The notes below the pieces were generated by a model. It had not been told where the DNA came from. It made no database searches and was given only the letters and a program-made list of their open reading frames with translations. Shown here piece after piece: positions 2,907 to 20,007 of a stretch of DNA of 64,000 bases. How positions within the stretch are numbered: position 1 is the first letter of the stretch; each line of letters opens with the position of its first letter. The stretch spans positions 64,001-128,000 of the forward strand of contig CAYYQL010000002.1 in assembly GCA_964473825.1 (NCBI GenBank), written 5' to 3'. Both the position numbers and the translations under genes were made by a program. Origin of the DNA: an uncultured archaeon (GTDB taxonomy: Archaea; Asgardarchaeota; Thorarchaeia; Thorarchaeales; Thorarchaeaceae).

Positions 2907-3348
2907 CCTCGGTGATGAGCCGTACCGCAATTTCAGTGGTTCTGAAACCTACTACACGCGGCTTGAAGAAGTTCAGTTTGTCATCGGGCACATGAGCTTC
3001 TGGTTCGACAGCTGGTCTGGATGGACTGCGTTGTCAATCTAACCACTGGAGGTCCGTTCTACTACCAGGACTGGACATACGATTACACCGTCCATCCAAA
3101 CTACATGCCCAATGGCTTTTCTCTCCTATCAGCGGTGTTCCTTGTTGGATGGTGATGCATTCATTCCTGCACTTCGTAGAGCTCTCAACAGAGGTGATTC
3201 TCTCGTCTTGGATCGCCCTCTTTGAGTCCAAGAAGATCTATAGAATGGTGTGGCAGGAGGTAGTTCTCAAGATTTTAAAAAAGGTTAGATGGCTGTCCTA
3301 TCTCCCTGCCAAAATGCCTATATACCAAACAGCAATGAGGGCCTCATA

Positions 3349-3425
3349 GGGCCGATGGCTCAGCCCGGTAGAGCGACAGGCTCTTAACTTGTTGGTCGCG
3401 GGTTCGAATCCCGCTCGGCCCGCCA
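3349..3425 (+). tRNA. tRNA-Lys (anticodon CTT), CCA encoded
   Basis: Cloverleaf: GGGCCGA/TCGGCCC acceptor, GCTC/GAGC D stem, ACAGG-CTCTTAA-CTTGT anticodon arm, GCGGG-TTCGAAT-CCCGC T arm, G73, CCA. Confidence 0.97.
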
Positions 3426-3550
3426 CCTGTTCTTCAGGAGGTACTCCTCACTTCCAATTGTTCTCCGTAATTGATGGAACCCAATACCTGCTAAGCCACC
3501 AGTCGTTGATTGTCTTATGGACTAGCTGGTCCTCCCAGCAACGACACTGG
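3426..3550 (-). ncRNA. candidate omega/reRNA-like guide RNA overlapping the 3' end of the TnpB-like gene
   Basis: Three predicted hairpins (3499-3508/3539-3550 spanning the stop codon; 3452-3459/3469-3479; 3436-3440/3444-3448), located where TnpB omega-RNAs are encoded; boundaries inferred. Confidence 0.4.
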
Positions 3551-5678
3551 GTTTTCTCATATCAACTTCAATGATGTTCCGCGCCGCGTTGACATCAGCA
3601 TGGAAGTATGCAGCGCAGTTCTCACAGTAGAAGTATTCCCCGCCCTTGTACTCCTCTGTCGACCCTTCGCACTTCACCCTCACCCCTGTCTCCCCGCAGA
3701 TGTGACATTTTCGAGATGTCCATGCTGGACTCACCGTCCAGACGGCGCCGTAGCAATGCCCAAGAGCCTGACGCATATACCGCACGGTCTCAAGCACCTG
3801 TGACCACAGGTTGAACGACAACCGCCAGGATAGGTCCCCGTAGCCCTTGGGCGGCTGGTAATTCTTCAGATTCTCGAAGTACAGGGTCTTGACTCCGTGC
3901 CTCTCGCAGAACCAGACGGCCCTTGAGGCAATCTGCCGAGCTATCTCACGATCGAGTCGTCGAACCTTCTTCCAGATGGCATCCAGATGTCGCTCCTTCT
4001 TCCTGAGGGGGCCGGGTCGAGGATAGTCTTTATCGTGCTTGCGCTCCCAGTTGTTGCGCATGAGAGCAACCCGTGAGGAGAGCGCCTTTGTCTGATGCCT
4101 GAGGAGGTTGCGTTTCCTCACCAGCTCGTCAAGAGAGACAAGCTCATCCACGTAACCCTGACCGTTCCGCACCGAGAGCACGATGGGCACACGGATGCCA
4201 CGATCTGCACCGGCCTTCCGCGTATACTCGCGTTCCCCAATGACTTCATCGACCATCTCCTGAGTGGGTGGGAGGAAGGGTATGTCCAGGATGACCCGGT
4301 GACCACGCAAGAGCAGAGCGGGTGGACCACAGGTACGGGACTCCCTGAGTCGCTGCACCTTCTCCTTCAGTTGTGCCAGCTTCTCGGGGTCGGCGTTCTT
4401 GCGGTTCTTCCATCTGTTCAGCTGATAGACGGCATGCTGAAGCTCGATGGTGTTGGTCAGCTGCTCGTGCTGGTCCTCGTATTTTCGTGCTCGAAAGCGA
4501 AGTTTCTTTGCTCTCAGGTGCTTGCCCTGAGCCTCCGCCTCCGCTGCCCTTACTCTGTCCTCTCTTGCGGCCCGGGGTAGCCAATCAAGGAAACGAAACG
4601 CAAGAGTCCGCGTCTTGTATGGAGAGGTCTCATGTGTTTCTCCCTCCATGTGCTCAGGGAGCTTCAGGAAAAAGAGGATCTCATCTTCCCTGTTGAGGTC
4701 CCGAGAGTACCAGTATCCTTGACTGGGAGTGTTCTCCGTGCTGGCAGAGAAGTCCTCCGTATGGGAGTACATCCTGGGAGTGGCGAAGGGGTAGCCCTTC
4801 TTGTGCCAGTGACGGAGCCGCCACTTGGCAGTTGTAAGGATGCCTTTTGCTGTCTGTTCTTCCTTGAGATACCTGCGAATCCGTCCCCGCTGGTAGGGAC
4901 GAGTCCCAAGCGGTTCTCCTCTCTTCTCGAGAATCGAGTGGTCCAGTCTCCGGCGGAGCTGCTTGAGGACCGAGAGGCTGTAGTAGAAGCCTGTCCCGTT
5001 GTTCTTGGTGGACTCACACGCTGCTCGGACTGCCTTGGTCAGGTCGCTTGCGATGTACCGGTTCTTCAGCAGCCGGATCAGGTCGGTCTCGTTCTCACAG
5101 AGATACTCGATAGCTGTCTTCATCAGCTGTCGTCGCAGCCAGTTGGACTGGATGATGCGCGCAGCATGCTCCAGCGCGTTTCGATACAGGCGTTCGAAGC
5201 ACTGCTTTTGGATCTCAGGGTGACTCCTGTATCTCACAGAGTCCTCGTTCTTGAGAAGAGCGTAGCCCTGTCTGGGATACGAGGCCAGCTCCTCGCCGAG
5301 AAACGCAAACCGTCCCTTGTCAGCATACACTCGTTCAAGAACCTCGTTCACCAGTGAGACAAACGTCTCGAAATAGGAGCCAAGAAGAGAGAGGTCGATG
5401 TTGTTGACCTTCCGCCCGGTGGCTGCGGAGAGGCGCTCCTGAATCGCAGCAAGTTCACCCCTTCGGAATCGTGGATCTGGCCCCCTTCCCTTCCCCCTCT
5501 TGTTCACCTCGCGATGAACGGAGCAGAGGGAGAACTTGGAGGTCAGGTACTTCAGACCCGTACCGTGGTGCGTTGTTGATGTGACCGATATAAAGTTGTC
5601 ATCCATTGTCTGTTGCTTCTCCGAGGGATCCCTCGTAGCATGCTCCCGGGGATGACGCCGGGCTTCTTTCGTCATCAA
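3522..5678 (-). CDS. tnpB: large TnpB/Cas12-like RNA-guided RuvC endonuclease (718 aa)
   Basis: RuvC-I KAGADRG (D492), RuvC-II LYFENL (E602), SPAWTSRKCHICG...YCENC zinc ribbon, RuvC-III HADVNAARNI (D695); long helical N-terminal region. Confidence 0.9.
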   Translation of the reverse strand: MMTKEARRHPREHATRDPSEKQQTMDDNFISVTSTTHHGTGLKYLTSKFSLCSVHREVNKRGKGRGPDPRFRRGELAAIQERLSAATGRKVNNIDLSLLGSYFETFVSLVNEVLERVYADKGRFAFLGEELASYPRQGYALLKNEDSVRYRSHPEIQKQCFERLYRNALEHAARIIQSNWLRRQLMKTAIEYLCENETDLIRLLKNRYIASDLTKAVRAACESTKNNGTGFYYSLSVLKQLRRRLDHSILEKRGEPLGTRPYQRGRIRRYLKEEQTAKGILTTAKWRLRHWHKKGYPFATPRMYSHTEDFSASTENTPSQGYWYSRDLNREDEILFFLKLPEHMEGETHETSPYKTRTLAFRFLDWLPRAAREDRVRAAEAEAQGKHLRAKKLRFRARKYEDQHEQLTNTIELQHAVYQLNRWKNRKNADPEKLAQLKEKVQRLRESRTCGPPALLLRGHRVILDIPFLPPTQEMVDEVIGEREYTRKAGADRGIRVPIVLSVRNGQGYVDELVSLDELVRKRNLLRHQTKALSSRVALMRNNWERKHDKDYPRPGPLRKKERHLDAIWKKVRRLDREIARQIASRAVWFCERHGVKTLYFENLKNYQPPKGYGDLSWRLSFNLWSQVLETVRYMRQALGHCYGAVWTVSPAWTSRKCHICGETGVRVKCEGSTEEYKGGEYFYCENCAAYFHADVNAARNIIEVDMRKPSVVAGRTS

Positions 5679-5873
5679 CAGTACACCTCTCTCTTGTGTG
5701 GCTCAGAAGTTATAATCTCATAATCCGTTATAAAGTTACCAAGCAAGATTGCTTCTTGTCGGCTTAAAAGGATTATTAGGCTTTTTTACTTAAAATAAAG
5801 GCTTATGAGAGAATTTTGCTTCTTACAAATAGTCTAGAATATCTATATAAATAACCATGACCAATGGATAGAA
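5679..5873. promoter_or_regulatory. AT-rich divergent promoter region shared by the TnpB-like gene and the 1555-aa gene
   Basis: TATA-like boxes TTATAA (~5710, ~5728) and CTATATAAAT (~5844); TTGCTTCTT occurs twice. Confidence 0.55.
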
Positions 5874-8800
5874 GTGTCGCGTCTAGGGAGTTCAGGGAAA
5901 CCAAGCCAGATTCTGGCCCAATCAGTCATGACTGGGCTTGCTGCCTTAGTCAGACTGGCGCAGGCTCGAGGTAACTCCCAGACCCAGAAGTATGTCAACT
6001 CCATGACTGAGGTCTGGACTAGTGCGAAGAAGGAGCTGAAAGAAAATCAGGTCTTGAGCCCCCATGACTTCTCTTCTGTCCAGAATATCGAACATCTCTT
6101 GCGTCAGAGGTGGCTGGACATAATCTGGCACAGCACGAAACGGTACGGCAATCGTGAGTTCAAACGGATATACAGCTGGCGAGAGGGAAGTGTGGGTCCA
6201 CTGAATGGTCTACTGAACTATGCGGGAGCTCGTCTCCGAGATCTCGCTACAACTCACTACTCCTTTCCCGACCCGCAGCACTATCTCATCTTGCAGTACT
6301 CTGACGGTATCAAGACAGTCGTGCCTCAATCAGCCATATCAGAGGATGTCCCTAAAGATGTCGCGAAGAAGTATTGGCGAGTCGGCTATTCTGGTGACTC
6401 CAAGAGTCCACGTTTCTTGCTCTCACACCCTACACTTCCAGAACTCGATTTCGTAGACATGATCCGCGGACACGTACAAGAGCTCTGCCGACAACTCTTC
6501 ATCTACAACGTTCCGCGAAACGAGGCCCACCGATACATCCGCCTTCTTGTTCACAGACTCAAGCCCTTCCTGGACTGGTTCTATTCTCAAGGCGAAATAG
6601 GGCGAAAGGACTTCTATCCCGATGGAGACAGAGAACTGAGGGATATTGTACTCGAGGTACGGGCCGTGTATGGGCGTCGGGCTGGTAGACGAGAGCGTCT
6701 TTCCGACCAACTTGAGTGGAAAGACACGGCCCCTCTCACAGTAGAGTTCCTCAAGGCTCATGCAGAATCACTCTGCAATGGCTCGACATCGGAAGAGATC
6801 AGGGATGCTTGTGATAAAATCCTCGGCTACATCAATTCGGAGTATATTACCGAGCCTGACTTGCAGAAGCTCGAGGACCAGATTTCTGCCATCAGCCAAC
6901 GCGAGGGAAATGACTGGCACCGGGTGCTTCTCTCAGTCTTCCATCATCCGCGATCTCTGAAGTCGGTACTGTTCGCCGGGGACTCGATGTTGGAACGCCC
7001 TACAGACAGACAGTTCTTCGCTGAGGTGCCCATCCGTTCAAACACGGGCCATGGCAAGGCAGACTTGGTGCTCTTTGTTCGACGAAGTGTTGGACAGCGC
7101 ATGGTCTGGACTCCCGTAATGATTCTCGAACTCAAGACGAAGACCGCCTTCGACTACAACCTATACTGGATGCGACCACGGACGAAGAAGAACTACTCTG
7201 TTCCGGTGTTACATGGCTGGAAGACACGACTGACGCCCAAGGATTGGTCGACCATATCGACCTCCCTGCCCATCAAACGGACACGTGAACAGCTGGCGCT
7301 CTATGAGAAGATACTCCTTCGTGAGTACAGACAATTAGTACCTCAGGATGCATTTGCTCCCCGTGAGCTATGGAAGGGTGTCGTCATTGTTGACACGGCA
7401 GAGAGCTACGGGTCGATATTGGATGCTCTTGAGGGGATGCTTTCCAGCCTCCAGGCAGACCCAGCAGGCTTCGTTTCTACAATGGGGTGGACCTCTCACA
7501 GGTTCAAGAAGTCGGGAGGAGGTGACCGAATAGCCCTCCTCAAATCTCCCTGTTCGGGGCCCGTAGGCGTACTGCGAGAAGCTGTCATGGCAGATAAGAT
7601 CAAGTTAGACGATCCCTTTGAGCATCGGATCGCTGACGAACGCACTCTCACGCAGTATATCTCTGTTTCCTCAGCCACCTCTGGAGGAAATGCCGCTGCA
7701 TGGCATGCAAAGAACTGGCACCTCTTACATCACATTGACGAAGTCGTGGAACAGTGTCCCTCTACTGCCTCCGTCTGGTGGCTTGACTTGTTGGGAAGTC
7801 TTCCTGAACATCTGCGTAAACGGCGTTTCGGCCTGGACGACAAGTCATCGGATTTGCTCGAGAATATCACGTTCCTAAATCTGAGCAATGAGGTCGAGTC
7901 GTTTCTCAAAAGGAAATCAAACATCGTGCAGAGCCTTACCACCATCCCTGGGCCGGATAAGACAGAACACGTAATCATCATAGATGGCTGGGCGGACCTG
8001 AACCGGATGACTCCAACCTTGCAGAAGGAACGGCTCTTAGCTCTCGAATACGCTATCCTTGATACACTACCTGACAGGAATGTCAACATCATCTGGGTGG
8101 ATAGTGGCGTGAAAGGCACAAGGATGAACGAAACCTACCAACGGCCGTGTCTTGATGTTCTGCCCTATGACTCTCCTAGGCGTTTCCAGTTGGATGAGGT
8201 CATCTGGAATATACCCACTGCTCCCAGAGTATTCGGGTGGCAGACTCCCTATGCCGATGAGAAACGGATAATCGTTCAAGATACACCGACGAGTGCTCCT
8301 CCTTGGACCACTATGATTGAGGTGCCCATCCTTAGGAAGTGGGCGCGGAAGTTTAGGGGCGGCCCAAAACGCGACAAGATAGTGGCCGAGGAAGTCATCA
8401 TGGAAGAGCTAGTCACTACGCAGTCGATGTACGGACGAAACATAGTACTCGGGGACATCCAAGGTACAATCTCCTACCTCACAGAACAGACAGTCCAAGA
8501 TCTCCAGGCCGAGGCGATGACTGTCTCGCCGGCTCTTCTTCGCCCGAGGGACGAAGAAAGCATTGCCTTGGTGGCTGAACCGGAGAGCAAAAAGCACTCT
8601 TTCTCTAGTCGGTTAGTAGAGAAGGCTGAGGGGACATCGCTAAGAGAACGACTTCATCTCTGTCCGATTCATCCGCCTCCTAGTCCAAAACGAGCAACTG
8701 AAGCAAAGATGTATGCAAATCCTCTGGGTATCCCACGTCACTGGTATCACAAGACAGAGAGAGAAACTGAGGCTGAGAAACACTACACAAGGAAACCTCC

Positions 8801-10541
8801 CCTCTACGGGAAGAGTGAACTGATCTTTCTTGATAGTCCCACTGCGCGCAGGAGGGAGATCAGACGGTTACGAGATGCGGCGTGGTTTCTGAAACGCCTG
8901 TTCCCTGTGCATGACGACATGCATGGCCTGTGTGGACAGGTGTATTCACTCTGTGAAGACGCCCTAGATAATCCTGATGAGCCTGATAGATATGTTGGCG
9001 TACTTCTCCAAGTCAGAGACCTCATCATCCGTCATCCCAGCCGAGCTCGGGCTTGGCAATTGATTGAGCCGTATCGCGAGTTGGTAGGGGAGGTTCTCGG
9101 TGCGGAGAATCGTCTGCTCCTTGCCGATATCCGCCGTGAGAATCCAGATATCCTTTCCCTATATGGGAACAATCTCCTCATGGGAATCATGGCTGCATTG
9201 GCTAAGACGGTTCGTGATGAGGGGCACTCGGCTGCGATTTCCCTCTGGGAATCTGTGGTTGAATGGCTACCGTATCAGATGGGATTCGCCCCGGTTCAGG
9301 CATCTCAGGAGAGAATCCAGTCAGTGTACGACTTTCAGACGATCTTCGCAAATCTCCTCTCGCGTGCGGGATACCTTACAATGAAAGACCCCCAAGTGGA
9401 AGACCATATGGACGAGATAGCCTTGCTGCCCGCCATCTATAGGCCAGGGCTTCTAGTGGGCAAAGAAGACCATCTTTGGTTCCTCTTCGAACGCCCAGAC
9501 GGTCAAGCTGTCTGTGGTCTTATGAGAGAAAGACAGGAGAGGTTACGTTTGGGATTCCAGTGGTGTTCGAGCAATCCAGCAGAACTCAGTGATAGTGCAC
9601 AAGAGCTGCTTGACGCATCTTGCCTTTGGATCGAAGAGTCACTAGCCGTGACCAATGTAGGCGGTCAAGAGATTCTATGGGGATGGAGTCATGATGAAGA
9701 TGAATGGGGGCTCGTTGGCAGACTTGACTACGGAAGCCACCAAGATTCAGAGGGGGTCCCCTCTCTCTTGTGGGTTCGGCTCTCCCCTCTTTCTATGAAA
9801 ACGACACTTAATCTAGAAGAGTGCCCCATTGGAGCACCCATACACAGTCTTGAGAGATTTCATCCAGTGCTGGAGAGGCTTGCGGGGCAACAGCATAGAG
9901 TGATATCTGTCACATGTGAGGTGACCGTGGACTTGAGCCAAGAAACCTATGTTGTCAGGTGCAAATCATCACGGGAGCTGTATCACGAGTTCCTAACTCC
10001 GCGAACCAAGGAGGTTGTGGCTTTTCTTCGGTCAACTGCCCTCAATGGGCGCAGTGTCACTAACGAAGAGGGCGCAATCCTGACATGGGACCACCTCACT
10101 GATATTGAATATGGGTATGCTGGAAGCGGAGAGGAATGGTTCAGCCTCTCATTTCTGAAACCGCTGGTGCACCGCAGTCGTTTCTTCGAGAGCTATGCCT
10201 ATCCGGAGAATGCGGAACATCTTCTCTCTGCACAAATGGGTCCCCCCGTGACCATGCACATCTGTTATGATAAGGGAATCATGGTTATGCATCGGTTCCT
10301 ACATCCTGTACTTACTGTCAGGTTAGATGGTCTGCCCGAGAATTCACATCTGAAGAAACTTGAGGGGGAAAGAATGAACATCTATGACGTGGCCTTGCTT
10401 GCAGAATTGGAGCAGTTGATAGATATTTCAACAGGATCAATCCATCCTCTAGAGTTTGATGTGACTGCAATCACTAGCGTAGGATTGCCCGTGAAACTTG
10501 AAACCAGTCGCCTTGCCAACCTTCTTCTGTATAGAAGGTGA
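5874..10541 (+). CDS. giant multidomain protein with a RecB/Cas4-like PD-(D/E)XK nuclease domain and a degenerate P-loop-like domain
   Basis: Uninterrupted 1555-aa ORF; AEVP(E384)...GKADLV(D397)...ILELKT(E419/K421)...EQLALY(Q473-Y477); later SSATSGGNA and HVIIIDGW resemble degenerate Walker A/B. Confidence 0.7.
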   Translation: MSRLGSSGKPSQILAQSVMTGLAALVRLAQARGNSQTQKYVNSMTEVWTSAKKELKENQVLSPHDFSSVQNIEHLLRQRWLDIIWHSTKRYGNREFKRIYSWREGSVGPLNGLLNYAGARLRDLATTHYSFPDPQHYLILQYSDGIKTVVPQSAISEDVPKDVAKKYWRVGYSGDSKSPRFLLSHPTLPELDFVDMIRGHVQELCRQLFIYNVPRNEAHRYIRLLVHRLKPFLDWFYSQGEIGRKDFYPDGDRELRDIVLEVRAVYGRRAGRRERLSDQLEWKDTAPLTVEFLKAHAESLCNGSTSEEIRDACDKILGYINSEYITEPDLQKLEDQISAISQREGNDWHRVLLSVFHHPRSLKSVLFAGDSMLERPTDRQFFAEVPIRSNTGHGKADLVLFVRRSVGQRMVWTPVMILELKTKTAFDYNLYWMRPRTKKNYSVPVLHGWKTRLTPKDWSTISTSLPIKRTREQLALYEKILLREYRQLVPQDAFAPRELWKGVVIVDTAESYGSILDALEGMLSSLQADPAGFVSTMGWTSHRFKKSGGGDRIALLKSPCSGPVGVLREAVMADKIKLDDPFEHRIADERTLTQYISVSSATSGGNAAAWHAKNWHLLHHIDEVVEQCPSTASVWWLDLLGSLPEHLRKRRFGLDDKSSDLLENITFLNLSNEVESFLKRKSNIVQSLTTIPGPDKTEHVIIIDGWADLNRMTPTLQKERLLALEYAILDTLPDRNVNIIWVDSGVKGTRMNETYQRPCLDVLPYDSPRRFQLDEVIWNIPTAPRVFGWQTPYADEKRIIVQDTPTSAPPWTTMIEVPILRKWARKFRGGPKRDKIVAEEVIMEELVTTQSMYGRNIVLGDIQGTISYLTEQTVQDLQAEAMTVSPALLRPRDEESIALVAEPESKKHSFSSRLVEKAEGTSLRERLHLCPIHPPPSPKRATEAKMYANPLGIPRHWYHKTERETEAEKHYTRKPPLYGKSELIFLDSPTARRREIRRLRDAAWFLKRLFPVHDDMHGLCGQVYSLCEDALDNPDEPDRYVGVLLQVRDLIIRHPSRARAWQLIEPYRELVGEVLGAENRLLLADIRRENPDILSLYGNNLLMGIMAALAKTVRDEGHSAAISLWESVVEWLPYQMGFAPVQASQERIQSVYDFQTIFANLLSRAGYLTMKDPQVEDHMDEIALLPAIYRPGLLVGKEDHLWFLFERPDGQAVCGLMRERQERLRLGFQWCSSNPAELSDSAQELLDASCLWIEESLAVTNVGGQEILWGWSHDEDEWGLVGRLDYGSHQDSEGVPSLLWVRLSPLSMKTTLNLEECPIGAPIHSLERFHPVLERLAGQQHRVISVTCEVTVDLSQETYVVRCKSSRELYHEFLTPRTKEVVAFLRSTALNGRSVTNEEGAILTWDHLTDIEYGYAGSGEEWFSLSFLKPLVHRSRFFESYAYPENAEHLLSAQMGPPVTMHICYDKGIMVMHRFLHPVLTVRLDGLPENSHLKKLEGERMNIYDVALLAELEQLIDISTGSIHPLEFDVTAITSVGLPVKLETSRLANLLLYRR

Positions 10542-10851
10542 GATTCCTGTTGCTGGAATATTGGAGTCGGACTTACCCGTCCGTTTCGCCTATCTCATCA
10601 ATGAACGAGTAATGTGGATTGTTTGCCCAGAAGCGTACCTCTCAACTTCATGTGGCCAATGATGGTTCTCGATATATGCTTGCCAACATCGAAAGAAAGG
10701 TTATCAGGAGTGATCTCTTTGCGTGATTGAGATAGCATGTATGGCATGTGCGCTAGGTGGATTGATAGCCGTCATAAGATTGGCGATGTAGTTATTTCGA
10801 TTAGCTCGCGGAATGCCAGACAACTTGCAGACACGTGGCATCTGAAACCCA

Positions 10852-12729
10852 ATGGCTAGCCTAGGATATGATTGGTATGCGGTGGAACCCTCATCAGTTT
10901 GTCTTCTTGTGTGGTTCAAGGGAGGAATGGTTATGAAAGGAACAGAAGAAGTGTTTCGCCAGCGCCAGTACTTCGAGTTTGTTGCTCATATGAAATGGGG
11001 CTGGGAATTCCAGCATCTCTTCGAGCGGTTGATGATGAGAACTGAACCCGGCTTTATCCCAGTTAGACCACAGGGACGCTTAGGCGATTGGAAATGCGAT
11101 GGATACTCACATCGGACAAGTCGTTTCTTTCAAGTATATGCCCCAAGATTCACCAAGTCAAAGGTAGCCGTACAAAAAGCAGAAGAAGACCTTGTTTATG
11201 TACTCGAAAACTGGCCTGAAGATACAGCTCCATTACGCGAGTGGATTTTTGTATACGGCCATCATGATGTATATCCTGCTCTACGTACAGAGATTCTCAA
11301 GATTGCCCAGAATCGTGGTATCAAAATCATCGAGTGGAACCTACAAGATATTTGGAACAAGTTTCTGGAACTGAGTCGAGATAGTCGTCTAGCGGTACTA
11401 CAGATGCCCGGAGAATGGCTCACCGATGATAGTAGAAAGCTCGACCAGATACTTTCTAGATTGCCAGAAGCCCAAGGAAAAGAAAGCCAAGAAAAGAAGT
11501 CTTGGACATCTGTCCCCATACAAAGCACGCCGTCATACAGGGTGACCATAGATGAAACAAAGGGAGTTGATGGCACATTATGGTTTTTGTTCGAAATGGG
11601 GATCGAGGTGAAAGAATTCCTGGTTGAATCTTTGGACAAAATTCATCGGGAATTCAATGAATTATGCTCTTGGGGGAGAAATAAGAGCTTCCAGTGGCTT
11701 CACCGATCCAATGAAACCCTCTTGAAGGGGCATTACTGGCGTGATGATATTGGGTTTCTAACCACAACTCACATCAGAAAGCTGTCCAGTGCATCCTTTG
11801 AGCTGAGTTGTTCTCTTTCTAGAGCATTGGATGGTCACTGGCTATCGCAGTCACTTGTCGGGCTTCTTGGTAAGACCCCTGTTTTCCCTCTTGAGGAGAA
11901 TACGATAGTAGATGGCGGGAGAATTCTCATCAAAGATCCAAAGAAACCCCATCTAACGATTTTGGTGAATCTGAAAGACCTCTATGCTGGGATGATTGCC
12001 AATCCGAAGTACGAAATCAATTTTCAATCAACAGATGCATCTATAACTGAGTATTGTACATCCTCAGGTCAGAGGGTATTATCCTTCCATATTCGTTCTA
12101 ATCTAGGCAGTTTTGAAAGAATCGCTCAGATAATAGGGCCTAATGTAATTCAGCCAAGTGAAACGACTTCTTCAGATGTTAGAGCTTTCGACGTAGGTTG
12201 GAACGGAGACGGTCTTGAGATTCGGATATGGATTAACGCAGCGGAACCTGATGGATGTATTCAAGACTGCACATGTTGTCCCCTATTCTTGAAGGGCTGT
12301 AACAACGCCCATTATTGGCAATCGGTAAATCTTAAACACCTCACAGAGGAGCTCGAGTATGCATCTGTGTTTCTGCCGGCTGATTCTGAGGCGGAGCTAT
12401 TAGAGTTGGTTCGAGAAGAGATGAGTGACACCTTGCGAGTCATCTTAGGCAAGAAGGAAAGGGAAAAAGTTTCATCGCTGTTCAGACAGATAGCAGATGC
12501 TCGCGCGAAATTGAATGAACAGTTCTCGAAATTGCTAGATTACTGCCGACGAATACACCTGATGACCCCAAGAGAGCGCCGAAATGTATCTGATCTTGCA
12601 CGGGTTGTAAGGCATCGAATAGAGCGAGGCGGCAAGTTAGCAGATCCTCGCGTTATTGGTGCGAACCCAAAGTACATGGATTTGGAAACGTTTGATTGTC
12701 TAATGGAGGACTACGGCGTCGTTTTCTAG
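10852..12729 (+). CDS. protein with an N-terminal restriction-endonuclease-like domain of the ABC-3C/Lamassu effector type; frame stays open past the TAG to 13005
   Basis: EFQHLFERLM...FIPVRPQGRLGDWKCDGY...FFQVYAP motif; likely start ~10928-10934; 91 further sense codons follow the TAG. Confidence 0.65.
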   Translation: MASLGYDWYAVEPSSVCLLVWFKGGMVMKGTEEVFRQRQYFEFVAHMKWGWEFQHLFERLMMRTEPGFIPVRPQGRLGDWKCDGYSHRTSRFFQVYAPRFTKSKVAVQKAEEDLVYVLENWPEDTAPLREWIFVYGHHDVYPALRTEILKIAQNRGIKIIEWNLQDIWNKFLELSRDSRLAVLQMPGEWLTDDSRKLDQILSRLPEAQGKESQEKKSWTSVPIQSTPSYRVTIDETKGVDGTLWFLFEMGIEVKEFLVESLDKIHREFNELCSWGRNKSFQWLHRSNETLLKGHYWRDDIGFLTTTHIRKLSSASFELSCSLSRALDGHWLSQSLVGLLGKTPVFPLEENTIVDGGRILIKDPKKPHLTILVNLKDLYAGMIANPKYEINFQSTDASITEYCTSSGQRVLSFHIRSNLGSFERIAQIIGPNVIQPSETTSSDVRAFDVGWNGDGLEIRIWINAAEPDGCIQDCTCCPLFLKGCNNAHYWQSVNLKHLTEELEYASVFLPADSEAELLELVREEMSDTLRVILGKKEREKVSSLFRQIADARAKLNEQFSKLLDYCRRIHLMTPRERRNVSDLARVVRHRIERGGKLADPRVIGANPKYMDLETFDCLMEDYGVVF

Positions 12730-13024
12730 GCGATTTGCTCAGACACTGATGGAGTTCTGCAACTGTTTCGAGGAAGACCATTCAAGGAAAATCGGGAATA
12801 TCTGAACTCCCTCCTTCCCTCCATTGCGGAAATAAAGGACCAGTATCTTGGACATTCCACAGAGCTATCGTACATTACAAGTTGTACGCCAGAGATAGTA
12901 GATTACGACTCGCTGGGCGTTGATTTTCTACTGGCAAATTCGTTGGGCCTCATGAAGAGTGGAGGCAAGATAGACAATTCCTCTTGGACTTTCGACAGAG
13001 ATTAAAGTGGTTGGGTTCAGATAA

Positions 13025-14638
13025 ATGTCGGAATGCCAGAAGAAATTCTTCTTTCAGATCATGTGGGGAGTAGTAATGACGAAATCCCAGTTCATTGTAG
13101 AATATACACATCCACGGTTTGCAGCAATCATGCCAGCGGAACAAATCTTGACAGTTGGAGATTTGGATGGCGATTTATGGCACTTCTCTGATGGCGATAT
13201 AACAACGGCAACTTTCTCCGATTTAGTACCTCCAGGTTCGGAACAAGGCTACGTTGGCTCGCTGTCTATCAGCCTTGTAGGTCTTGAGGTTCCAGAGATT
13301 GTGTATGAGTCTACTCGGCGCATAGATGTAACCGATATTGGCAGCTATCTGTTGCCTCTTCCTACAGCGAAACTGAGAGCAGAAGTCACTCTTGTGGATT
13401 TGGACAAGAGAGTCCTCGAAACCCTTAGATGGTATAGAACTGTCGCATCTGAGAACGGGATTGGCGCGCCACAGGCATCTATTGATGAGATGATTGAGAA
13501 ACTAAAAGAATGCTTCATAGAAGACCCATCTCGATTGCCTGAGATGCTGTCAGAGTATCAGCAAAGCGAAAGGCGTTTCAGGTTCCTTGCGAGGAAAGCA
13601 CGGGAAGACCCAACATCACAAGCAGTCGATGCTTTGCTGATTGAAAGACCTCTAGATCCCCTCGGTATGGGTAGCCAGATTGTTAGGGAATTGCCCGGGA
13701 TTATAGAAGCTTTGGATCCTCAGTCTCAACAAGAAGCGATAGATATGCTGGATGATTTGAAGAGAAGAATCCTGTCAACATCAATTCAGAAGCCTGACAA
13801 TTCAGAAGAATACGATGTTGCATTGCGACTGAGAGAAAGCCTCCGGATTCAAAAAGCGCTGCGAAAGTTTGAAGACGAAAGTACGAGACTGCCTAACAAC
13901 GTTGACCCGGATGCAACAAAGCAGTTTGCATTTGATTTCTTTCATCTACTAATGCATTACTGGAATAACGCAATCAGATATCTCAAGTACGAGAAGTCAC
14001 AGCATTGGATGAGGGAGTATCCAGAGTATGCAGCCGGTCTTTTCTATGTCAGAAATCGTGTTTCACTGGACGGCGAACACATTCTCCCGCATGTAACAGC
14101 TCACGTTAGGCAGGAGGTCCTTCGTCATAATCTGATCCAGAGAAGAGAATGGAAGGAAATCGTCCAAGCAACAAGTGACGCAGCACGCCTTGAGAGATAC
14201 ATGCTAGACTGGACGGTTGAGGGTATCCTCTCCCAGGCCCTCTCACATCTCACAAAAGGAGAGCTTCTTCCGCCGATTGTATTGGGGGGAGTTGCTCTAG
14301 AGGAGGCGATGACCAGAGCGCTGTTTCACGTGAATCCCGACGATTATGACAAGAGGGGATTGGGTCTGAAGATAAAGGACGTCCATAGAATGATAGGACG
14401 CGAAGCTCTTGGGTATGAGAAGAGTCAGTGGAAGAAGGACTGGAATCTCCTAAACAAGGGCTCAAAGGAGGAGGGGACGGGATTGGTTCAGATCAGGACC
14501 AGACTGCAACACCCCCAGATTGGATTAGAGAAGAACATCCCTTCAAGGAAAGATGTTGCTGAAATGATTCTGGCTTGCCAACGAATGTGCAATGCTTTAC
14601 TCAAATACGATCGTCACAGGTGTAGCGAACTTGCCTAG
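13025..14638 (+). CDS. protein with a C-terminal HEPN-like RNase domain
   Basis: GGVALEEAM helix followed by an R-x4-H motif (RTRLQH, 14495-14512) and a terminal helix. Confidence 0.6.
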   Translation: MSECQKKFFFQIMWGVVMTKSQFIVEYTHPRFAAIMPAEQILTVGDLDGDLWHFSDGDITTATFSDLVPPGSEQGYVGSLSISLVGLEVPEIVYESTRRIDVTDIGSYLLPLPTAKLRAEVTLVDLDKRVLETLRWYRTVASENGIGAPQASIDEMIEKLKECFIEDPSRLPEMLSEYQQSERRFRFLARKAREDPTSQAVDALLIERPLDPLGMGSQIVRELPGIIEALDPQSQQEAIDMLDDLKRRILSTSIQKPDNSEEYDVALRLRESLRIQKALRKFEDESTRLPNNVDPDATKQFAFDFFHLLMHYWNNAIRYLKYEKSQHWMREYPEYAAGLFYVRNRVSLDGEHILPHVTAHVRQEVLRHNLIQRREWKEIVQATSDAARLERYMLDWTVEGILSQALSHLTKGELLPPIVLGGVALEEAMTRALFHVNPDDYDKRGLGLKIKDVHRMIGREALGYEKSQWKKDWNLLNKGSKEEGTGLVQIRTRLQHPQIGLEKNIPSRKDVAEMILACQRMCNALLKYDRHRCSELA

Positions 14639-14857
14639 GAGACCCCTTTGGTCCTTCGGTGTCTTCTAACATAGATGAGATGTGAATCAGGAAACGAGTT
14701 TGTTCCTGTTGAAATATTCTACATGCTGATCGCAGGCGATAGATAGAAATCAGTGTAACTATTCATATTCGTTTGAGTAGGAAGGGGATGTCAGAACAAA
14801 CGAAACAGAATCTCAAGCGACTGCTAAGAACCATAGAGAATCGAATCGTTTAGAGAT

Positions 14858-16075
14858 GTGCAAGTTTCACTTGCGGTTTTTACCCCAAGAGAAGAGGATC
14901 CGCAATTTGTCTATTCAATAGTACGATTCCTCAATCACGATGAACCTCATAGGAACGAGCTATACGACTGGGATAGATTCAAAGTAATTCACACTGTCAT
15001 CAGCACCGACGATGCAAAGAACCTGATTGAGCGATTATTCAATGAAAACGTCTTTGTCTTGAGAGATCGGGATTCCACGGAAGAACGAATGCTAATTCCC
15101 ATGGAATGCAATCTTCATGATATTCGTGATGTTGGAAGTCAAGAAAGCTATGGCTATGCGAAACACGATTGGCCGTCACTCTTTGCAATAGCTGATGCTC
15201 GAAACGAACCCTCTGGAGAGATATGGCATTCCTATCTATGTGCCATTGGACAGCCTCTGTTTCCGAGTGTGCAAGAGGGAGTCAGAACACTCTTTGGTTT
15301 CAGTGTTGACGAGAAATGGGGAATCAGAAGTAGGTTGGAAGTAGTCGTACCGGACTTCCGGGCGAGAATCAGGAACTTCGTGATTGAGGGCATAAGAGTA
15401 CGAATCGAAGTAGATGTAGAAAGACTGACGCTTGAAGATGTCCGGCTCAAATTATACAGCAAAGGCCGTAAGAAGCGATTCAATTCTGACGACATCAGAC
15501 TAACCGGCAACATTCACACTTGTACACTTGATGAGGAACCCGTGATGCTTGAGGCGTGTATACTATCTGTAGTTGACGGCAGTCTTGTTGATAGAGTGAG
15601 TTATGATAGGCGATACCCTTCAGGGATCACACCCCTCAGAATGTATGACACTCGTATGGCTCTAGGTCTAATCTCTGAAGGTGAGAATAGACATGTAGAG
15701 TTCAAAGAGAAACTGAATACCCAAAACCCCTATGAGTTTCTTGAGAGTGTTGTGGCATTTGCCAACACCAAAGGGGGGCAAATTCTTTTGGGCGTTAACG
15801 ATAGAGGTGAAGTGAGAGGCATAAGAAAGGACTACTCGGAAACCATAATCAATCTGATTCATTCCCATATGAATCCCCCCATCGAACCGAACATTCAGCA
15901 CGGAATAGTCATAGAGGGGCGGGAGATAACAATCGTTGAAATCCCGGAGGGCGGTGCAAAGCCCTATTGGCTCAAGAATCATGGATCTTATGTCAGAAGA
16001 GGGGCTACTGACAAACCCATTTCGAGAACCGAAGCAGAGCAATTATTCAAGAATCGAGCTGGAATAGACTTCTAG
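14858..16075 (+). CDS. Schlafen/AlbA_2-domain protein (C-terminal), probably 5'-frameshifted from an original start at 14788
   Basis: GENRHVEFKE...VVAFANTKGGQILLGVND...YVRRGATD AlbA_2 motifs. Confidence 0.85.
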   Translation: MQVSLAVFTPREEDPQFVYSIVRFLNHDEPHRNELYDWDRFKVIHTVISTDDAKNLIERLFNENVFVLRDRDSTEERMLIPMECNLHDIRDVGSQESYGYAKHDWPSLFAIADARNEPSGEIWHSYLCAIGQPLFPSVQEGVRTLFGFSVDEKWGIRSRLEVVVPDFRARIRNFVIEGIRVRIEVDVERLTLEDVRLKLYSKGRKKRFNSDDIRLTGNIHTCTLDEEPVMLEACILSVVDGSLVDRVSYDRRYPSGITPLRMYDTRMALGLISEGENRHVEFKEKLNTQNPYEFLESVVAFANTKGGQILLGVNDRGEVRGIRKDYSETIINLIHSHMNPPIEPNIQHGIVIEGREITIVEIPEGGAKPYWLKNHGSYVRRGATDKPISRTEAEQLFKNRAGIDF

Positions 16076-16167
16076 TTCCATCTATGACTTTGGATATGAT
16101 GCCGAATATTCCTATACGCGCTCTGCACCAAAATCTGACTATTGATTTCTTTTGCGTCCCTTTTCTT

Positions 16168-16968
16168 CTAAGGGTGCCAATATCTTGCGCTACACCTTTT
16201 TCTGTAACGGAACGCCCACTTTTGAAGGCCTGAGGGCAATGGTTCAAGTGAGAAGTAGGAATGGTAATAGCTATTGCATATGGTGAAATCGAGAAACTGA
16301 TCGCATGAGGGGCAGCTGATTTCAAGACCGTCACATCGTTGGGACATGTGAGCAGAACTTGCCCGAATGTTGAGAATGGGAATATCGGATTCAATGTAAA
16401 TCTCAGTTCCACAGAAAGGACATTTGCCCACGACTTCAATCCAGCCATAGGGTTCCCAATCTAAAATAGGTCCAGAGGTGTCAGTTTCCGCATCTATCCA
16501 AGGGTTGATTTGTTCATAGACTGCTTCTGCTGTACGAAAGATGGCTTGAAGATCATCATCGCTTTGGAGTCTACTAACGAACCGATCAAGATCACAAATC
16601 ATACCTTCATCCCGATAAATCAGGTCCATCATCGCACTCTTGGCGCATCCTGATTGTTCAGTGGTTACATAGCTCTTTACGAGTTCGAAGTGATCGTAGA
16701 CATCCAAACCCATTTGGTTCCCTCTTCCCTTCAAGTAGCCAAGTTTAGCCATCGCACTTGCCTTATTCTCGAACATGCTCAAACCAAGTATGACTCTATC
16801 GATCTGGCTCCTATCAGATTCATATCCATGAAACTCAAGGAACTGCTGGTAGGCAACAACGCCGTGCTCAAAGGGCCATTGAGCATTCCAGCCTACGTCC
16901 GGAAATGGGAGGGCGACTACTGAGAAATCATTGGAATAGGCATCTGGGAGAATTTGTGCTAGTGCCAT
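16168..16968 (-). CDS. hypothetical protein with a C-terminal zinc ribbon
   Basis: 266-aa ORF with CPFCG...CPSCD. Confidence 0.6.
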   Translation of the reverse strand: MALAQILPDAYSNDFSVVALPFPDVGWNAQWPFEHGVVAYQQFLEFHGYESDRSQIDRVILGLSMFENKASAMAKLGYLKGRGNQMGLDVYDHFELVKSYVTTEQSGCAKSAMMDLIYRDEGMICDLDRFVSRLQSDDDLQAIFRTAEAVYEQINPWIDAETDTSGPILDWEPYGWIEVVGKCPFCGTEIYIESDIPILNIRASSAHMSQRCDGLEISCPSCDQFLDFTICNSYYHSYFSLEPLPSGLQKWAFRYRKRCSARYWHP

Positions 16969-17089: not shown

Positions 17090-18096
17090 GAGTGGCAACT
17101 ACTTCCCCCACAAAATCTCGATGAAACATCGGTCGTAGTAATCCTCAATTGTGTCGGCCATATCAAAGGTGACCATGTTTTTCAAGCTCAATTTCTTCTC
17201 TTCCGCCTCTCGAAGGGCGACCTTGAGAAAAGTTAGGCTGTTTCCACATTGCTCTTCAATTCCTGAAGCCAGTCAAGGCACTCGTCACCGCTTGACCAAG
17301 GCATATCATGGCTTTGCCTTTGACAATACTTTGTGACTATTCCCTTTGCTGTCTCCTCAAATGCGGTTTCCTCTAGAAGAAAAAACACAATCTCATCTGT
17401 ACATCTCTCTCTGGATGGTCTTCTTCGCCAATCCTCTTCGTCTGCTCTAACACTTGCATTTGTACAACGAGCTATGAAGGGCACATGGATGCCATCTCCA
17501 AACCAATTCTTCTTCTCTGTCAGTAGATGCAGAAACAACTTCGTATCAAAATGCACGTTGTCGATAATTGCCAGTGCTTTTGCCCTTCCGAAAAAAGGCT
17601 CGGAAAGCGATTCGAATACTTGGTGGAGCCTCTGTGCAGGATTAGAATAACCTCCAGAAGCTGCAGCCCAGTAGAATACGAAGCTCCAATCATTCTTTTC
17701 GGTCAGAATACGATAACCAAGATGCTGTGCCAGCGTAGTCTTCCCCAGTCCAAGAAGAAACCTTCTCGGCCCGAGGTGGCTTTCCATTCCTCATTCGTTT
17801 CAAGCCCTATATGTTTCTCCCGAAACTGCGTAAGTAGGGCAGTTTCCTGTTTGAAAAGCATTACTGTCACATGAGAGATTGGCCATAGAGACCTCGATTA
17901 ACCCCTCACCGGCCCACTCGTTCGCCTCTTCTCGCTTTCTGGTTATAGAGATTTCGGAATACTCTCTTTCAAAATCTACAGCATAATCGCGAGAGTTTGT
18001 GTGGACGCCCATGATTAAGAGAACTCTTCGATGACTACAAGATAACACAAGTGAAGGGATTTCAAGGTATTCGGAAAAGACTTTATTGAAACGCAT
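17090..18096 (-). pseudogene. fragmented STAND-like P-loop NTPase
   Basis: GLGKTTLAQHLGY (Walker A remnant), LAIIDNVH (Walker B) and CGNSLTFLKVAL lie in different frames separated by stops/frameshifts. Confidence 0.6.
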
Positions 18097-18111
18097 CCCT
18101 TAGTAGATGCA

Positions 18112-19965: not shown

Positions 19966-20007
19966 CAATAGGCCTAGCGATAGGCTATTGACTTGTAGAA
20001 GTTTGCT

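What the first reader, a model, noticed from the sequence alone, without database searches (positions are those of the whole stretch)
3426..10541. Candidate new RNA-guided system: oversized orphan TnpB/Cas12-like nuclease paired head-to-head with a giant RecB/Cas4-type nuclease at a tRNA
Seen: two long, intact ORFs (718 aa on minus, 1555 aa on plus) share a ~195-bp AT-rich divergent promoter region. They sit immediately after tRNA-Lys. There is no TnpA (Y1 or serine recombinase), cas1/cas2, integrase or CRISPR array nearby, and several neighbouring island genes are decayed. Known: TnpB has repeatedly been domesticated with partner genes (Cas12, CAST Cas12k, TldR, Fanzor). Inference: the pair may be a two-component module in which the RNA-guided protein finds a target and the giant PD-(D/E)XK protein degrades or processes DNA, for defence or for element homing. 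I do not recognise this architecture from described systems.
Basis: partly seen in the sequence, partly recalled or inferred. Interest (0 to 1): 0.9.

Follow-up and report, generated by a model that had tools for sequence, protein, structure and literature searches.

The report
TnpB transposon carrying giant Cas1-like gene
The two genes are a real, conserved pair found only in Thorarchaeia: an RNA-guided TnpB nuclease with its guide RNA, and a giant protein combining Cas1-like, RecB/Cas4-like and RecA-like parts. Together they form the core of an IS607-type transposon, so this is not an orphan new defence system, and the pairing was already sketched in the literature as "Asgard Cas1–TnpB".

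Summary
A 718-aa TnpB-like ORF (3522-5678, minus strand) and a 1555-aa ORF (5874-10541, plus strand) lie head-to-head, 195 bp apart, next to tRNA-Lys(CTT).

- **Conserved pair.** The pairing recurs in at least 30 loci from many Thorarchaeia genomes, including two more in this genome, with a near-constant gap. The two genes co-diverge (Mantel r = 0.65).
- **Not an orphan.** The TnpB-like gene keeps its D-E-D/Zn-finger catalytic set. It ends in a covarying RNA scaffold, after which homology stops abruptly, as at an ωRNA/right end.
- **Transposon context.** Relatives carry an IS607-type serine TnpA and subterminal inverted repeats, with the giant gene inside the element. T-only 2.3-kb copies also exist.
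- **The giant protein.** It has no Pfam hit. It folds confidently into a Cas1/casposase-like helical domain (Z 13), a PD-(D/E)XK nuclease (D…ExK, QxxxY) and a RecA/Rad51-like core without a P-loop lysine. A weaker second Cas1-like domain may follow.
- **The window copy.** It lacks TnpA and the end repeats, sits at an old tRNA-Lys-linked site, and is still under purifying selection (dN/dS 0.11 and 0.20).
- **Prior work.** Altae-Tran 2023 and Makarova 2020 reported Asgard "aCas1–TnpB" loci. This is most likely one of them or a close variant.

The giant's function remains untested.

The parts
3349..3425 (+). tRNA-Lys(CTT), convergent with the TnpB-like gene. It is the only clear tRNA-Lys(CTT) gene of the genome.
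   Evidence: ARAGORN. The same tRNA sits next to TnpB-like genes or their remnants in at least 10 genomes of 4 genera (one search compared).
3484..3503 (-). Guide position: the first ~20 nt after the scaffold end (ACTGGTGGCTTAGCAGGTAT). It is a degenerate copy of the 5'/D-arm part of tRNA-Lys in sense orientation.
   Evidence: Homology between related elements stops exactly here. The consensus RCYRGTGGCTYAGC is shared by 7 tRNA-Lys-linked loci. There is no second match in the genome.
3504..3551 (-). Conserved, structured 3' part of the putative ωRNA scaffold. It comprises hairpin H1 (CCCAGTGTCGTTGCTGGG, inside the ORF end), stem H2 (GGAC/GTCC) and the terminal ACAATCAACG. The 5' limit of the RNA is unknown.
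   Evidence: Alignment A3 of 41 loci. H1 is 100 % paired with compensatory changes and H2 is 95 % paired. Overall 90 % of cells are paired against 25-48 % in slid controls, and 0/500 shuffles reach the observed covariation.
3522..5678 (-). TnpB/Cas12f-like RNA-guided nuclease ('T'), 718 aa. The RuvC and Zn-finger (TNB) region is in residues ~484-705. The N-terminal ~480 aa is specific to this family.
   Evidence: Pfam PF07282 at 1.8e-10. NCBIfam and PADLOC give TnpB, Cas12f and Cas12u hits below cutoff. The family profile hits TnpB 9nzp_A at 3e-11 and Cas12f structures. D492, E602, D695 and C658/C661/C685/C688 are conserved. dN/dS is 0.11 against the G074 orthologue.
5679..5873 (.). Divergent intergenic region with promoter-like elements. 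AATCTTGnTAAnnTTATAA lies about 50-75 nt upstream of T, and a TTATATA box lies on the giant's side.
   Evidence: The gap is 196-258 bp in at least 30 pairs. Shared 7-mers AATCTTG and TTATATA occur in 15 of 29 loci.
5874..10541 (+). Giant protein ('G'), 1555 aa, with no Pfam, NCBIfam or PADLOC family.
   Evidence: The family of ~1,400-2,350-aa proteins carries Thorarchaeota names where any are given (one Lokiarchaeota, one Promethearchaeia). Only 131 clusters were found among 1.84 billion representatives. dN/dS is 0.20.
5883..6623 (+). G residues 4-250: Cas1/casposase-like α-helical (catalytic-type) domain.
   Evidence: Model pLDDT is 85.6. VIA-align hits include 8flj_A Z 13.2, 4n06_B 12.1, 4w8k_A 11.8, 7mi4_A 10.9 and casposase 6opm_A 10.8. 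Every row covering this region is a Cas1-family protein. E73/E95, H185, D192 and D195 are conserved. hhalign against canonical Cas1 is weak (E 0.011).
6996..7403 (+). G residues ~375-510: RecB-type PD-(D/E)XK nuclease.
   Evidence: D397, E419-x-K421 and Q473xxxY477 are invariant or nearly invariant. The model shows a β-sheet core. The MGME1 match is Z 8.2 over residues 271-562.
7635..8333 (+). G residues 588-820: RecA/Rad51/KaiC-like core with a degenerate P-loop (no conserved Lys). D704-G-W is conserved.
   Evidence: Foldseek finds RAD51/RadA at E 5e-6. VIA gives Z 11-12. The Atlas search finds Rad51-domain clusters at TM 0.61.
8802..9353 (+). G residues ~977-1160: possible second, degenerate Cas1-like helical domain.
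   Evidence: C-terminal model pLDDT is 85. The top 8 VIA hits are Cas1 or casposase but weak, at Z 5.4-6.5.
17907..17997 (-). Displaced tRNA-Lys promoter remnant ('R') with the first bases of the tRNA. It marks the rearrangement that inverted the [tRNA-T-G] block.
   Evidence: In G074 two inverted copies of R flank the orthologous block. The same promoter motif GGTTATAGAGGTTTCGGAA adjoins tRNA-Lys in other genera.

Best explanation
The pair is the core of a Thorarchaeia-specific lineage of IS607-family transposons. T is a large TnpB-type RNA-guided DNA nuclease. Its ωRNA overlaps the 3' end of the gene and ends at the transposon's right end, so the ~20 nt of flanking DNA serve as guide, as in the canonical TnpB homing logic. 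G is encoded inside the element, head-to-head with T. It is a multidomain DNA-processing enzyme made of a Cas1/casposase-like domain, a RecB-type PD-(D/E)XK nuclease and a RecA-like core, possibly followed by a second Cas1-like domain.

Complete elements read LE(TTGGACAnnnTTGGACA) – serine tnpA → ← G – T → ωRNA – RE. Many copies have lost tnpA, or both tnpA and G.

The window's copy is an old derivative linked to tRNA-Lys. It has no tnpA, no left end and a shortened scaffold without the TnpA-site repeats, so it is probably immobile. Both genes are nevertheless still kept by purifying selection.

Shown: the conserved module, the RNA structure, the element ends, the catalytic residues, the folds and the selection.

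Inferred: G acts on DNA ends or branched DNA during the element's movement or during repair of the T-made break. It would integrate or resect and pair DNA, not degrade invader DNA.
For: - **Conserved module.** There are at least 30 divergent T–G pairs with 196-258-bp gaps in 87 genomes, and 3 pairs in this genome alone (C2, C26, C6). T and G distances correlate, r = 0.65, Mantel 0/2000.
- **T and G move as one unit.** L027 and L048 (same genome) are 93 % identical over 7.2 kb with different flanks. L016 and L027 diverge exactly after AACGGTT.
- **ωRNA.** The structure covaries.
- **TnpB identity and active site.**
- **IS607 link.** Full-length MerR-resolvase TnpA lies beyond the G 3' end, on T's strand, in L030, L031, L034, L043 and L047. 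Remnants occur in L029, L040, L049, L050 and L056, and at G000:C1.
- **Subterminal inverted repeats.** They occur with G internal (L034, L037) and in T-only units (L049-L051).
- **Distribution.** Patchy and multi-copy.
- **G folds.**, with motifs.
- **Selection.** dN/dS is 0.11 for T and 0.20 for G.
- **Literature.** aCas1–TnpB transposon-like loci in Asgard archaea are reported in PMC10691335.
Against: - The Cas1 assignment rests on a predicted fold of a helical domain. Z 13 is at the level where helical folds can match by arrangement alone.
- Sequence evidence for Cas1 is weak or absent. hhalign gives probability 3.7 %. Pfam Cas1 never hits G. The exhaustive profile search finds no canonical Cas1.
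- There is no residue-level superposition of the E/H/D site.
- The GTTCACTCA motif reported for published aCas1–TnpB loci is absent here, so identity with that class is unproven.
- No intact TnpA exists in this genome, and the window copy lacks the end repeats, so current mobility is not shown.
- No RNA data exist.
- Some T–G copies (L027, L048) share a left boundary at the G 3' end without the LE motif, which the TnpA model does not explain.
- The role of G is wholly inferred.
Confidence: 0.6

Rival explanations
1. G (the Asgard Cas1 homologue) is itself the transposase or integrase of the element, as in casposons. It has replaced or supplements the serine TnpA, and T only provides homing. 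This is the proposal of Altae-Tran et al. 2023 for aCas1–TnpB loci.
For: G has a Cas1/casposase-like fold with conserved acidic and His residues. T–G units lacking TnpA and the LE motif are nevertheless duplicated within one genome, as in L027/L048 at 93 % identity. Most T–G copies have no TnpA. The literature makes the same proposal.
Against: Complete elements carry a serine TnpA and IS607-style subterminal repeats, with G in the interior. T-only units with the same ends move without G. No casposon-type TIRs or target duplications were seen at T–G ends. The Cas1 link is structural only.
Confidence: 0.2
2. This is the first reader's model: a two-component RNA-guided defence module. T finds foreign DNA and G degrades or processes it.
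For: The immobile window copy remains under purifying selection. It sits beside a variable island with Schlafen/AlbA_2 genes. G has an intact-looking nuclease motif.
Against: The module behaves as a transposon, with ends, TnpA, multi-copy and patchy distribution, and decay remnants. The guide is just the local flank and has no other match in the genome. There is no array or means of reprogramming. G has no PADLOC hit.
Confidence: 0.08
3. G is mere passenger cargo with a function unrelated to T, for example a host-beneficial or selfish DNA-repair protein. The adjacency would then reflect only co-transposition.
For: IS605/IS607 TnpB elements occasionally carry cargo genes (PMC10691335). T-only elements are common.
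Against: The divergent orientation and gap are fixed across pairs down to 24-29 % G identity, including the C6 pair, whose T is no longer detectable with P0001. The two genes co-diverge. The promoter region is shared and conserved. In every fetched locus where its 5' flank could be read, G lies beside a T-family gene.
Confidence: 0.1

Closest known systems
Asgard 'aCas1–TnpB' loci (groups Cas1H-Asgard-1/-2 of Altae-Tran et al. 2023, PMC10691335; aCas1 from Makarova et al. 2020, CRISPR J, not readable here)
   Same: The host is an Asgard archaeon. A TnpB sits next to an extremely diverged Cas1 homologue, the locus is transposon-like with flanking repeats, and a hypervariable guide-like region follows the tnpB 3' end.
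   Different: The published GTTCACTCA motif after the hypervariable region is not present. A serine TnpA co-occurs here instead of being replaced. I could not check whether the published aCas1 is this ~1,500-1,900-aa fusion protein.
IS607-family transposons (serine TnpA + TnpB + ωRNA)
   Same: A MerR-HTH serine recombinase lies upstream on the same strand as TnpB. The ωRNA scaffold overlaps the tnpB 3' end and stops at the right end, with the guide taken from the flank. TnpB-only derivatives also occur.
   Different: T is about 720 aa, against about 400 for typical TnpB. A 4.5-5.7-kb gene is inserted in the opposite orientation between tnpA and tnpB, giving elements of 7-8.7 kb. The window copy has no TnpA or end repeats.
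Casposons / CRISPR adaptation module (Cas1, Cas4-Cas1 fusions)
   Same: G has a Cas1-type α-helical domain fold and a RecB/Cas4-type PD-(D/E)XK nuclease with QxxxY in one polypeptide, as in Cas4–Cas1 fusions.
   Different: G lacks the Cas1 N-terminal β-domain, Cas2, a Pfam Cas1 signal, conserved Cas4 Fe-S cysteines, a PolB, a CRISPR array, and casposon TIR/TSD.
Type V-K CAST homing / tRNA-targeting integrative elements
   Same: Several copies sit immediately beside a tRNA gene, and the guide-position sequence resembles that tRNA.
   Different: T keeps an active-looking RuvC site, unlike Cas12k. There are no Tn7 genes. Only a minority of copies (about 15-20 %) are tRNA-linked.

Membership tests
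TnpB (IS200/IS605/IS607 OrfB, RNA-guided nuclease) | RuvC-I/II/III catalytic D-E-D | tested here: met
   D492 (GADRG), E602 (FE[ND]L) and D695 (HADVNAARNI) are invariant or nearly invariant in 24 family members, including the distant C6 paralogue. They align with TnpB 9nzp_A.
TnpB (IS200/IS605/IS607 OrfB, RNA-guided nuclease) | Zn-ribbon/TNB domain (CxxC…CxxC) | tested here: met
   Pfam PF07282 scores 41.3 bits against a cutoff of 26.3. C658, C661, C685 and C688 are invariant.
TnpB (IS200/IS605/IS607 OrfB, RNA-guided nuclease) | Curated whole-protein score (NCBIfam guided_TnpB) | tested here: not met
   The score is 56.6 bits against a cutoff of 100. Only residues 487-702 match, and the N-terminal 480 aa is family-specific.
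TnpB (IS200/IS605/IS607 OrfB, RNA-guided nuclease) | ωRNA overlapping the gene's 3' end, ending at the transposon right end, with the guide from the flank | tested here: met
   The structure is conserved and covarying. Related elements lose homology abruptly right after the scaffold. Expression and guided cleavage were not testable.
IS607 family | Serine recombinase TnpA with an N-terminal MerR-type HTH in the element | tested here: inconclusive
   Present and full-length in relatives L030, L031, L034, L043 and L047, with remnants elsewhere. Absent from the window's copy and, in intact form, from the whole genome.
IS607 family | Defined element ends | tested here: met
   LE TTGGACAnnnTTGGACA and its inverse in the RE scaffold occur in L034, L037 and L049-L051. 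They are not present in the window's copy.
Type V CRISPR-Cas (Cas12) | Adjacent CRISPR array | tested here: not met
   No tandem repeats in window 1-30000.
Cas1 / casposase | α-helical catalytic domain fold | tested here: met
   G residues 4-250 match 8flj_A with Z 13.2, rmsd 3.7 and 175 aligned residues. All 12 or so rows covering this region are Cas1-family proteins. This is a predicted model, and the fold is helical.
Cas1 / casposase | Sequence-family membership (Pfam PF01867) | tested here: not met
   No hit at E ≤ 1. PF01867 finds only canonical Cas1 in the 87 genomes. hhalign gives E 0.011 and probability 3.7 %. No canonical Cas1 appears among 131 profile hits.
Cas1 / casposase | Catalytic E-H-D triad | tested here: inconclusive
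   Conserved candidates are E73/E95, H185 and D192/D195, in motifs resembling Cas1's PVNALIS…LHEP…LDxxE. No residue-level structural superposition was available.
Cas1 / casposase | N-terminal β-strand domain | tested here: not met
   The Cas1-like helices start at residue ~4-10 of G, and no β-domain precedes them.
Cas4 / RecB-type PD-(D/E)XK nuclease | D…(D/E)xK and QxxxY motifs | tested here: met
   D397, E419, K421, Q473 and Y477 are conserved in 51 sequences. The fold match to MGME1 is Z 8.2, which is weak.
Cas4 / RecB-type PD-(D/E)XK nuclease | Cas4 Fe-S cluster cysteines | tested here: not met
   No invariant or nearly invariant Cys lies in residues 375-560 of alignment A1.
RecA/Rad51/KaiC ATPases | Core fold | tested here: met
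   Foldseek gives E 5e-6, VIA gives Z 11-12 over residues 588-820, and the Atlas search gives TM 0.61 to a Rad51 cluster.
RecA/Rad51/KaiC ATPases | Walker A GxxxxGK[ST] | tested here: not met
   The P-loop position reads S-x-x-S-G-G-x-A-A with no conserved Lys. A Walker-B-like D704 is conserved.
Published aCas1–TnpB groups (PMC10691335) | Hypervariable region followed by a conserved GTTCACTCA motif downstream of tnpB | tested here: not met
   Only sporadic 1-2-mismatch matches at varying offsets in 43 loci.
Published aCas1–TnpB groups (PMC10691335) | Asgard host, with a Cas1 homologue adjacent to TnpB in a repeat-flanked locus | tested here: met
   Source names for both families are Thorarchaeota. 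Adjacency is shown, and the repeats. Sequence identity with the published proteins could not be checked.

The most novel reading that the evidence does not exclude
G is an adaptation-type enzyme (Cas1-like integrase plus Cas4-like trimming nuclease) that works for T. It would write or exchange the ~20-nt guide segment next to the ωRNA scaffold, making a single-spacer 'proto-CRISPR' that couples an adaptation module to a TnpB effector inside a transposon. A related possibility is that the ancient tRNA-Lys-linked copy is a domesticated RNA-guided system, with its conserved tRNA-like guide (RCYRGTGGCTYAGC) aimed at a conserved tRNA-like target. Nothing here excludes either reading. The guide-position sequence is the most divergent part of the otherwise 86.5 %-identical orthologous block, yet it is conserved in pattern across genera.
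Probability: 0.07. Interest if true: 0.95.

Novelty: new variant of a known kind. Interest (0 to 1): 0.55.

Why it matters
TnpB is the ancestor of Cas12, and Cas1 and Cas4 are the CRISPR adaptation enzymes. Here a TnpB with its ωRNA and a giant fusion protein with Cas1-like, Cas4/RecB-like and RecA-like parts are locked together, head-to-head, inside one transposon lineage in Asgard archaea. They have co-diverged over a long time and stay under selection even in an immobilised copy.

That gives a concrete natural system for two questions. One is how an effector and an integrase/nuclease module came to cooperate before CRISPR arrays existed. The other is whether transposons encode their own break-processing or recombination machinery for RNA-guided homing.

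The association itself has already been noted in the literature. The added value here is the following anatomy:
- element ends
- TnpA co-occurrence
- ωRNA structure
- domain map of the giant
- the tRNA-Lys-linked ancient copy
- the selection data

The kind of system itself is not new.

Tried and rejected
- **Family scans of the giant.** Pfam, NCBIfam and PADLOC gave nothing. Sequence and profile searches of PDB gave nothing useful. The feature search of the ESM Atlas gave no usable hit.
- **Bridging the giant's N-terminus to Cas1 by sequence.** hhalign was weak. The exhaustive profile search returned only family members. Pfam on the most divergent members showed only C-terminal TPRs.
- **The published GTTCACTCA motif.** Not found.
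- **A regulatory (TldR-like) reading.** Guides of all seven scaffold copies in the genome have no second near-match.
- **Strict orthology of the tRNA-Lys-linked copies.** Flanking synteny beyond the tRNA is not conserved between genera. Vertical descent and repeated site-specific insertion therefore remain unresolved.
- **Expression.** No RNA holder is listed among public runs.
- **Population variants.** Contigs from four DNA runs confirm the assembly but show no empty-site or excision joint.
- **Literature.** Makarova 2020 (PMC7307682) is not held, and the supplements of PMC10691335 are not held. Searches for 'Thorarchaeota' with 'TnpB' gave 0 papers.
- **Y1 TnpA.** Absent from the genome.
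- **Complex prediction.** Not used, because the report does not claim that T and G bind.
Full report
**Observation.** The window holds an intact 718-aa ORF on the minus strand (3522-5678; P0001, 'T') and an intact 1555-aa ORF on the plus strand (5874-10541; P0002, 'G'), 195 bp apart. tRNA-Lys(CTT) at 3349-3425 is convergent with T, 96 nt past its stop. No TnpA, integrase, cas gene or repeat array lies nearby. The description is therefore correct.

**T is a TnpB-type nuclease with a large private N-terminus.** Only residues ~484-705 match known families. These are Pfam Cas12f1-like TNB (1.8e-10, above cutoff), NCBIfam guided_TnpB (56.6 bits, below its cutoff of 100), and PADLOC Cas12u/Cas12f models. 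A profile of the family hits solved TnpB (9nzp_A, 3e-11) and Cas12f, Cas12g and CasΦ structures over the RuvC/TNB region. D492, E602, D695 and the four zinc-ribbon cysteines are conserved in the family, including a 19 %-identical paralogue. More than 120 full-length (~710 aa) homologues exist, and every named one is from Thorarchaeota.

**The pair is a conserved module.**
- The window's genome holds two further pairs. On C26, T is 68 % and G 38 % identical, with a gap of about 218 bp. On C6, G is 29 % identical and sits head-to-head with a 561-aa TnpB-like gene that P0001 no longer detects.
- Across 87 Thorarchaeia genomes G occurs in 56 and T in 50, with up to 11-12 matches per genome and a patchy spread within genera.
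- Matching coordinates gives at least 30 head-to-head pairs with 196-258-bp gaps.
- In 48 fetched T loci about two thirds carry the divergent giant ORF.
- Pairwise distances of T and G across 25 loci correlate, r = 0.65, Mantel 0/2000.
- The intergenic region keeps promoter-like motifs.

**It is a transposon module.**
- *Right end.* The last ~50-70 nt around the T stop form a conserved element: hairpin CCCAGTGCCGTTGCTGGG, a GGAC/GTCC stem, often an inner hairpin, then ACAATSAACGG(TT). Similarity between related copies ends abruptly after it. For example, L016 and L027 are 88 % identical over 7.2 kb and unrelated after AACGGTT.
- *RNA structure.* In 41 loci the hairpin is paired in every sequence, with compensatory changes inside the coding region (U-A 22, C-G 18, G-C 1; G-C 36, C-G 5). 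The whole structure is 90 % paired against 25-48 % for slid controls, and covariation exceeds all 500 shuffles. This matches a TnpB ωRNA scaffold ending at the transposon's right end, with the flank as guide.
- *T and G move together.* Two copies in one genome (L027, L048) are 93 % identical over 7.2 kb, up to about 45 nt before the G stop.
- *T-only units.* Units of 2.3 kb at 92-93 % identity sit in different contexts.
- *TnpA.* An IS607-type serine recombinase (MerR HTH plus resolvase) lies just beyond the G 3' end, on T's strand, in L030, L031, L034, L043 and L047. Remnants occur in L029, L040, L049, L050, L056 and L060. G000:C1 holds a TnpA(1-104)::T(592-717) deletion relic.
- *Left end.* About 50 nt upstream of tnpA, or at the left edge of TnpA-less units, lies TTGGACAnnnTTGGACA. 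This is the inverse of TGTCCAAGTTTGTCCAA in the right-end scaffold, so the elements have subterminal inverted repeats and G is internal.
- *Other transposases.* No Y1 TnpA and no intact serine TnpA exist in this genome.

**What G is.** No sequence library recognises it. With a 51-sequence alignment, residues 1-860 fold at pLDDT 85.6 and pTM 0.84, and residues 975-1555 at pLDDT 85.
- *Residues 4-250.* These match the α-helical catalytic domain of Cas1 and casposase (8flj_A Z 13.2; 4n06_B 12.1; 4w8k_A 11.8; 7mi4_A 10.9; 6opm_A 10.8). Every row covering that region is a Cas1-family protein.
- *Residues 588-820.* These are a RecA/Rad51/KaiC core (Foldseek E 5e-6; Z 11-12; Atlas Rad51 cluster TM 0.61) without a Walker-A lysine.
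- *Residues ~375-510.* These carry invariant D397, E419-x-K421 and Q473xxxY477, the RecB/Cas4-type PD-(D/E)XK signature, with a weak MGME1 match of Z 8.2.
- *Residues ~977-1160.* These again return only Cas1/casposase as top hits, but at Z 5.4-6.5.
- *Limits of the Cas1 link.* It is structural only. Pfam Cas1 never hits G. hhalign against canonical Thorarchaeia Cas1 gives E 0.011 and probability 3.7 %, aligning PLNALLNYAG with PVNALISYG. An exhaustive profile search of 1.84 billion representatives finds only 131 relatives, all of them giants or fragments.

**The window's copy.** The same-genus genome G074 has the orthologous block [tRNA-Lys–T–G] at 86.5 % nucleotide identity, but inverted between conserved flanks. 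There it is bracketed by inverted copies of the tRNA-Lys promoter. The window keeps one such remnant at 17907-17997 and has 7.4 kb inserted after G.

The window's scaffold is the short form, lacking the TGTCCAA repeats, and there is no left end or TnpA. T, intact or as a remnant, lies next to tRNA-Lys(CTT) in at least 10 genomes of 4 genera, while other genomes have the tRNA without any T. In seven of these loci the guide-position sequence is a degenerate sense copy of the tRNA-Lys 5'/D-arm (RCYRGTGGCTYAGC). tRNA-His and tRNA-Leu loci likewise carry partial copies of their own tRNA. Tested across 43 T loci, 7 guides match a tRNA at 13 of 18 positions or better, against 1 of 42 control flanks.

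No guide has a second target in the genome. Flanks beyond the tRNA are not syntenic between genera. Ancient descent and recurrent insertion at this site therefore cannot be separated.

Against the G074 orthologue, dN/dS is 0.11 for T and 0.20 for G, below 0.3 in every G domain, at dS 0.45. Both proteins are therefore maintained. Public contigs confirm the assembly, and no RNA data exist.

**Comparison with known systems.** Altae-Tran et al. 2023 (PMC10691335) report that in two Asgard-linked TnpB groups the usual TnpA is 'replaced' by Asgard Cas1 homologues (aCas1, from Makarova 2020). They propose aCas1 as the transposase and note a hypervariable region downstream of tnpB followed by GTTCACTCA. 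The present module fits that description in host, Cas1-like neighbour and transposon character. It lacks the GTTCACTCA motif and does co-occur with a serine TnpA. I could not read Makarova 2020 or the supplements, so identity with the published groups is likely but unproven.

**Verdict.**
- The finding is real but over-interpreted.
- It is a conserved TnpB transposon module whose partner is a giant Cas1-like, RecB-like and RecA-like protein.
- It is not an orphan new RNA-guided defence system.
- The mechanism I commit to at about 0.6 is as follows. T with its ωRNA cuts the empty site, and G processes or integrates DNA ends during movement or homing repair.
- The most attractive alternatives are that G is the transposase, or that it writes guides. 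Both are testable with the assays listed.

Noticed in passing
window 10472-21934: This ~11.5-kb variable island is absent from the same-genus genome G074, where flank B follows the tRNA promoter directly. It contains two Schlafen/AlbA_2-domain proteins (14858-16075 and 18112-19359) and several ORFs with no family.
   Followed up: partly
window 3250-3348 and 17907-17997: The tRNA-Lys(CTT) gene has been separated from its native, genus-spanning promoter (GGTTATAGAGGTTTCGGAA, now at 17.9 kb on the minus strand). It now has a different upstream sequence with a CCTATATACC box. The breakpoint is exactly at the tRNA 5' end.
   Followed up: partly
L017 (G000:C6) 5778-8015, minus strand: A 745-aa eukaryotic-type topoisomerase IB (Topoisom_I_N, Topoisom_I and Topo_C_assoc domains) lies immediately downstream of the C6 giant paralogue.
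   Followed up: no
L017 (G000:C6) 13145-17162: Two tandem TnpB-like genes (561 and ~703 aa ORFs) face the C6 giant. The second ORF runs over a convergent tRNA-Gly(TCC) at 16876-16950.
   Followed up: no
G000:C1:113687-114304: This is a deletion relic that fuses the first 104 residues of an IS607-type serine TnpA to the last ~125 residues of a T-family gene, with the scaffold intact.
   Followed up: yes
G000:C42:15370, C48:11912, C2:269243: Additional copies of the ωRNA-like scaffold occur here. At C42 and C48 no T gene is detectable with P0001. The C2:269243 copy has a tRNA-like guide-position sequence (GCCCGTTGCATAGCTGG).
   Followed up: partly
L033, L036, L063 (flank after the T stop): The tRNA-Lys(CTT) genes next to T in these genomes carry one or more introns, so ARAGORN missed them or called them only in intron mode.
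   Followed up: partly
P0293 (520 aa, metagenomic): This protein joins a segment of the giant's N-terminal (Cas1-like) domain to a TnpB RuvC/TNB C-terminus. It could be a rearranged or chimeric derivative, or an assembly artefact.
   Followed up: no
P0281, P0285 (2239 and 2353 aa): The longest and most divergent giant-family members carry C-terminal TPR repeats.
   Followed up: no
L002 5370-12127: Two T-family genes (631 and 708 aa) lie divergently about 2.6 kb apart with no giant gene between them.
   Followed up: no
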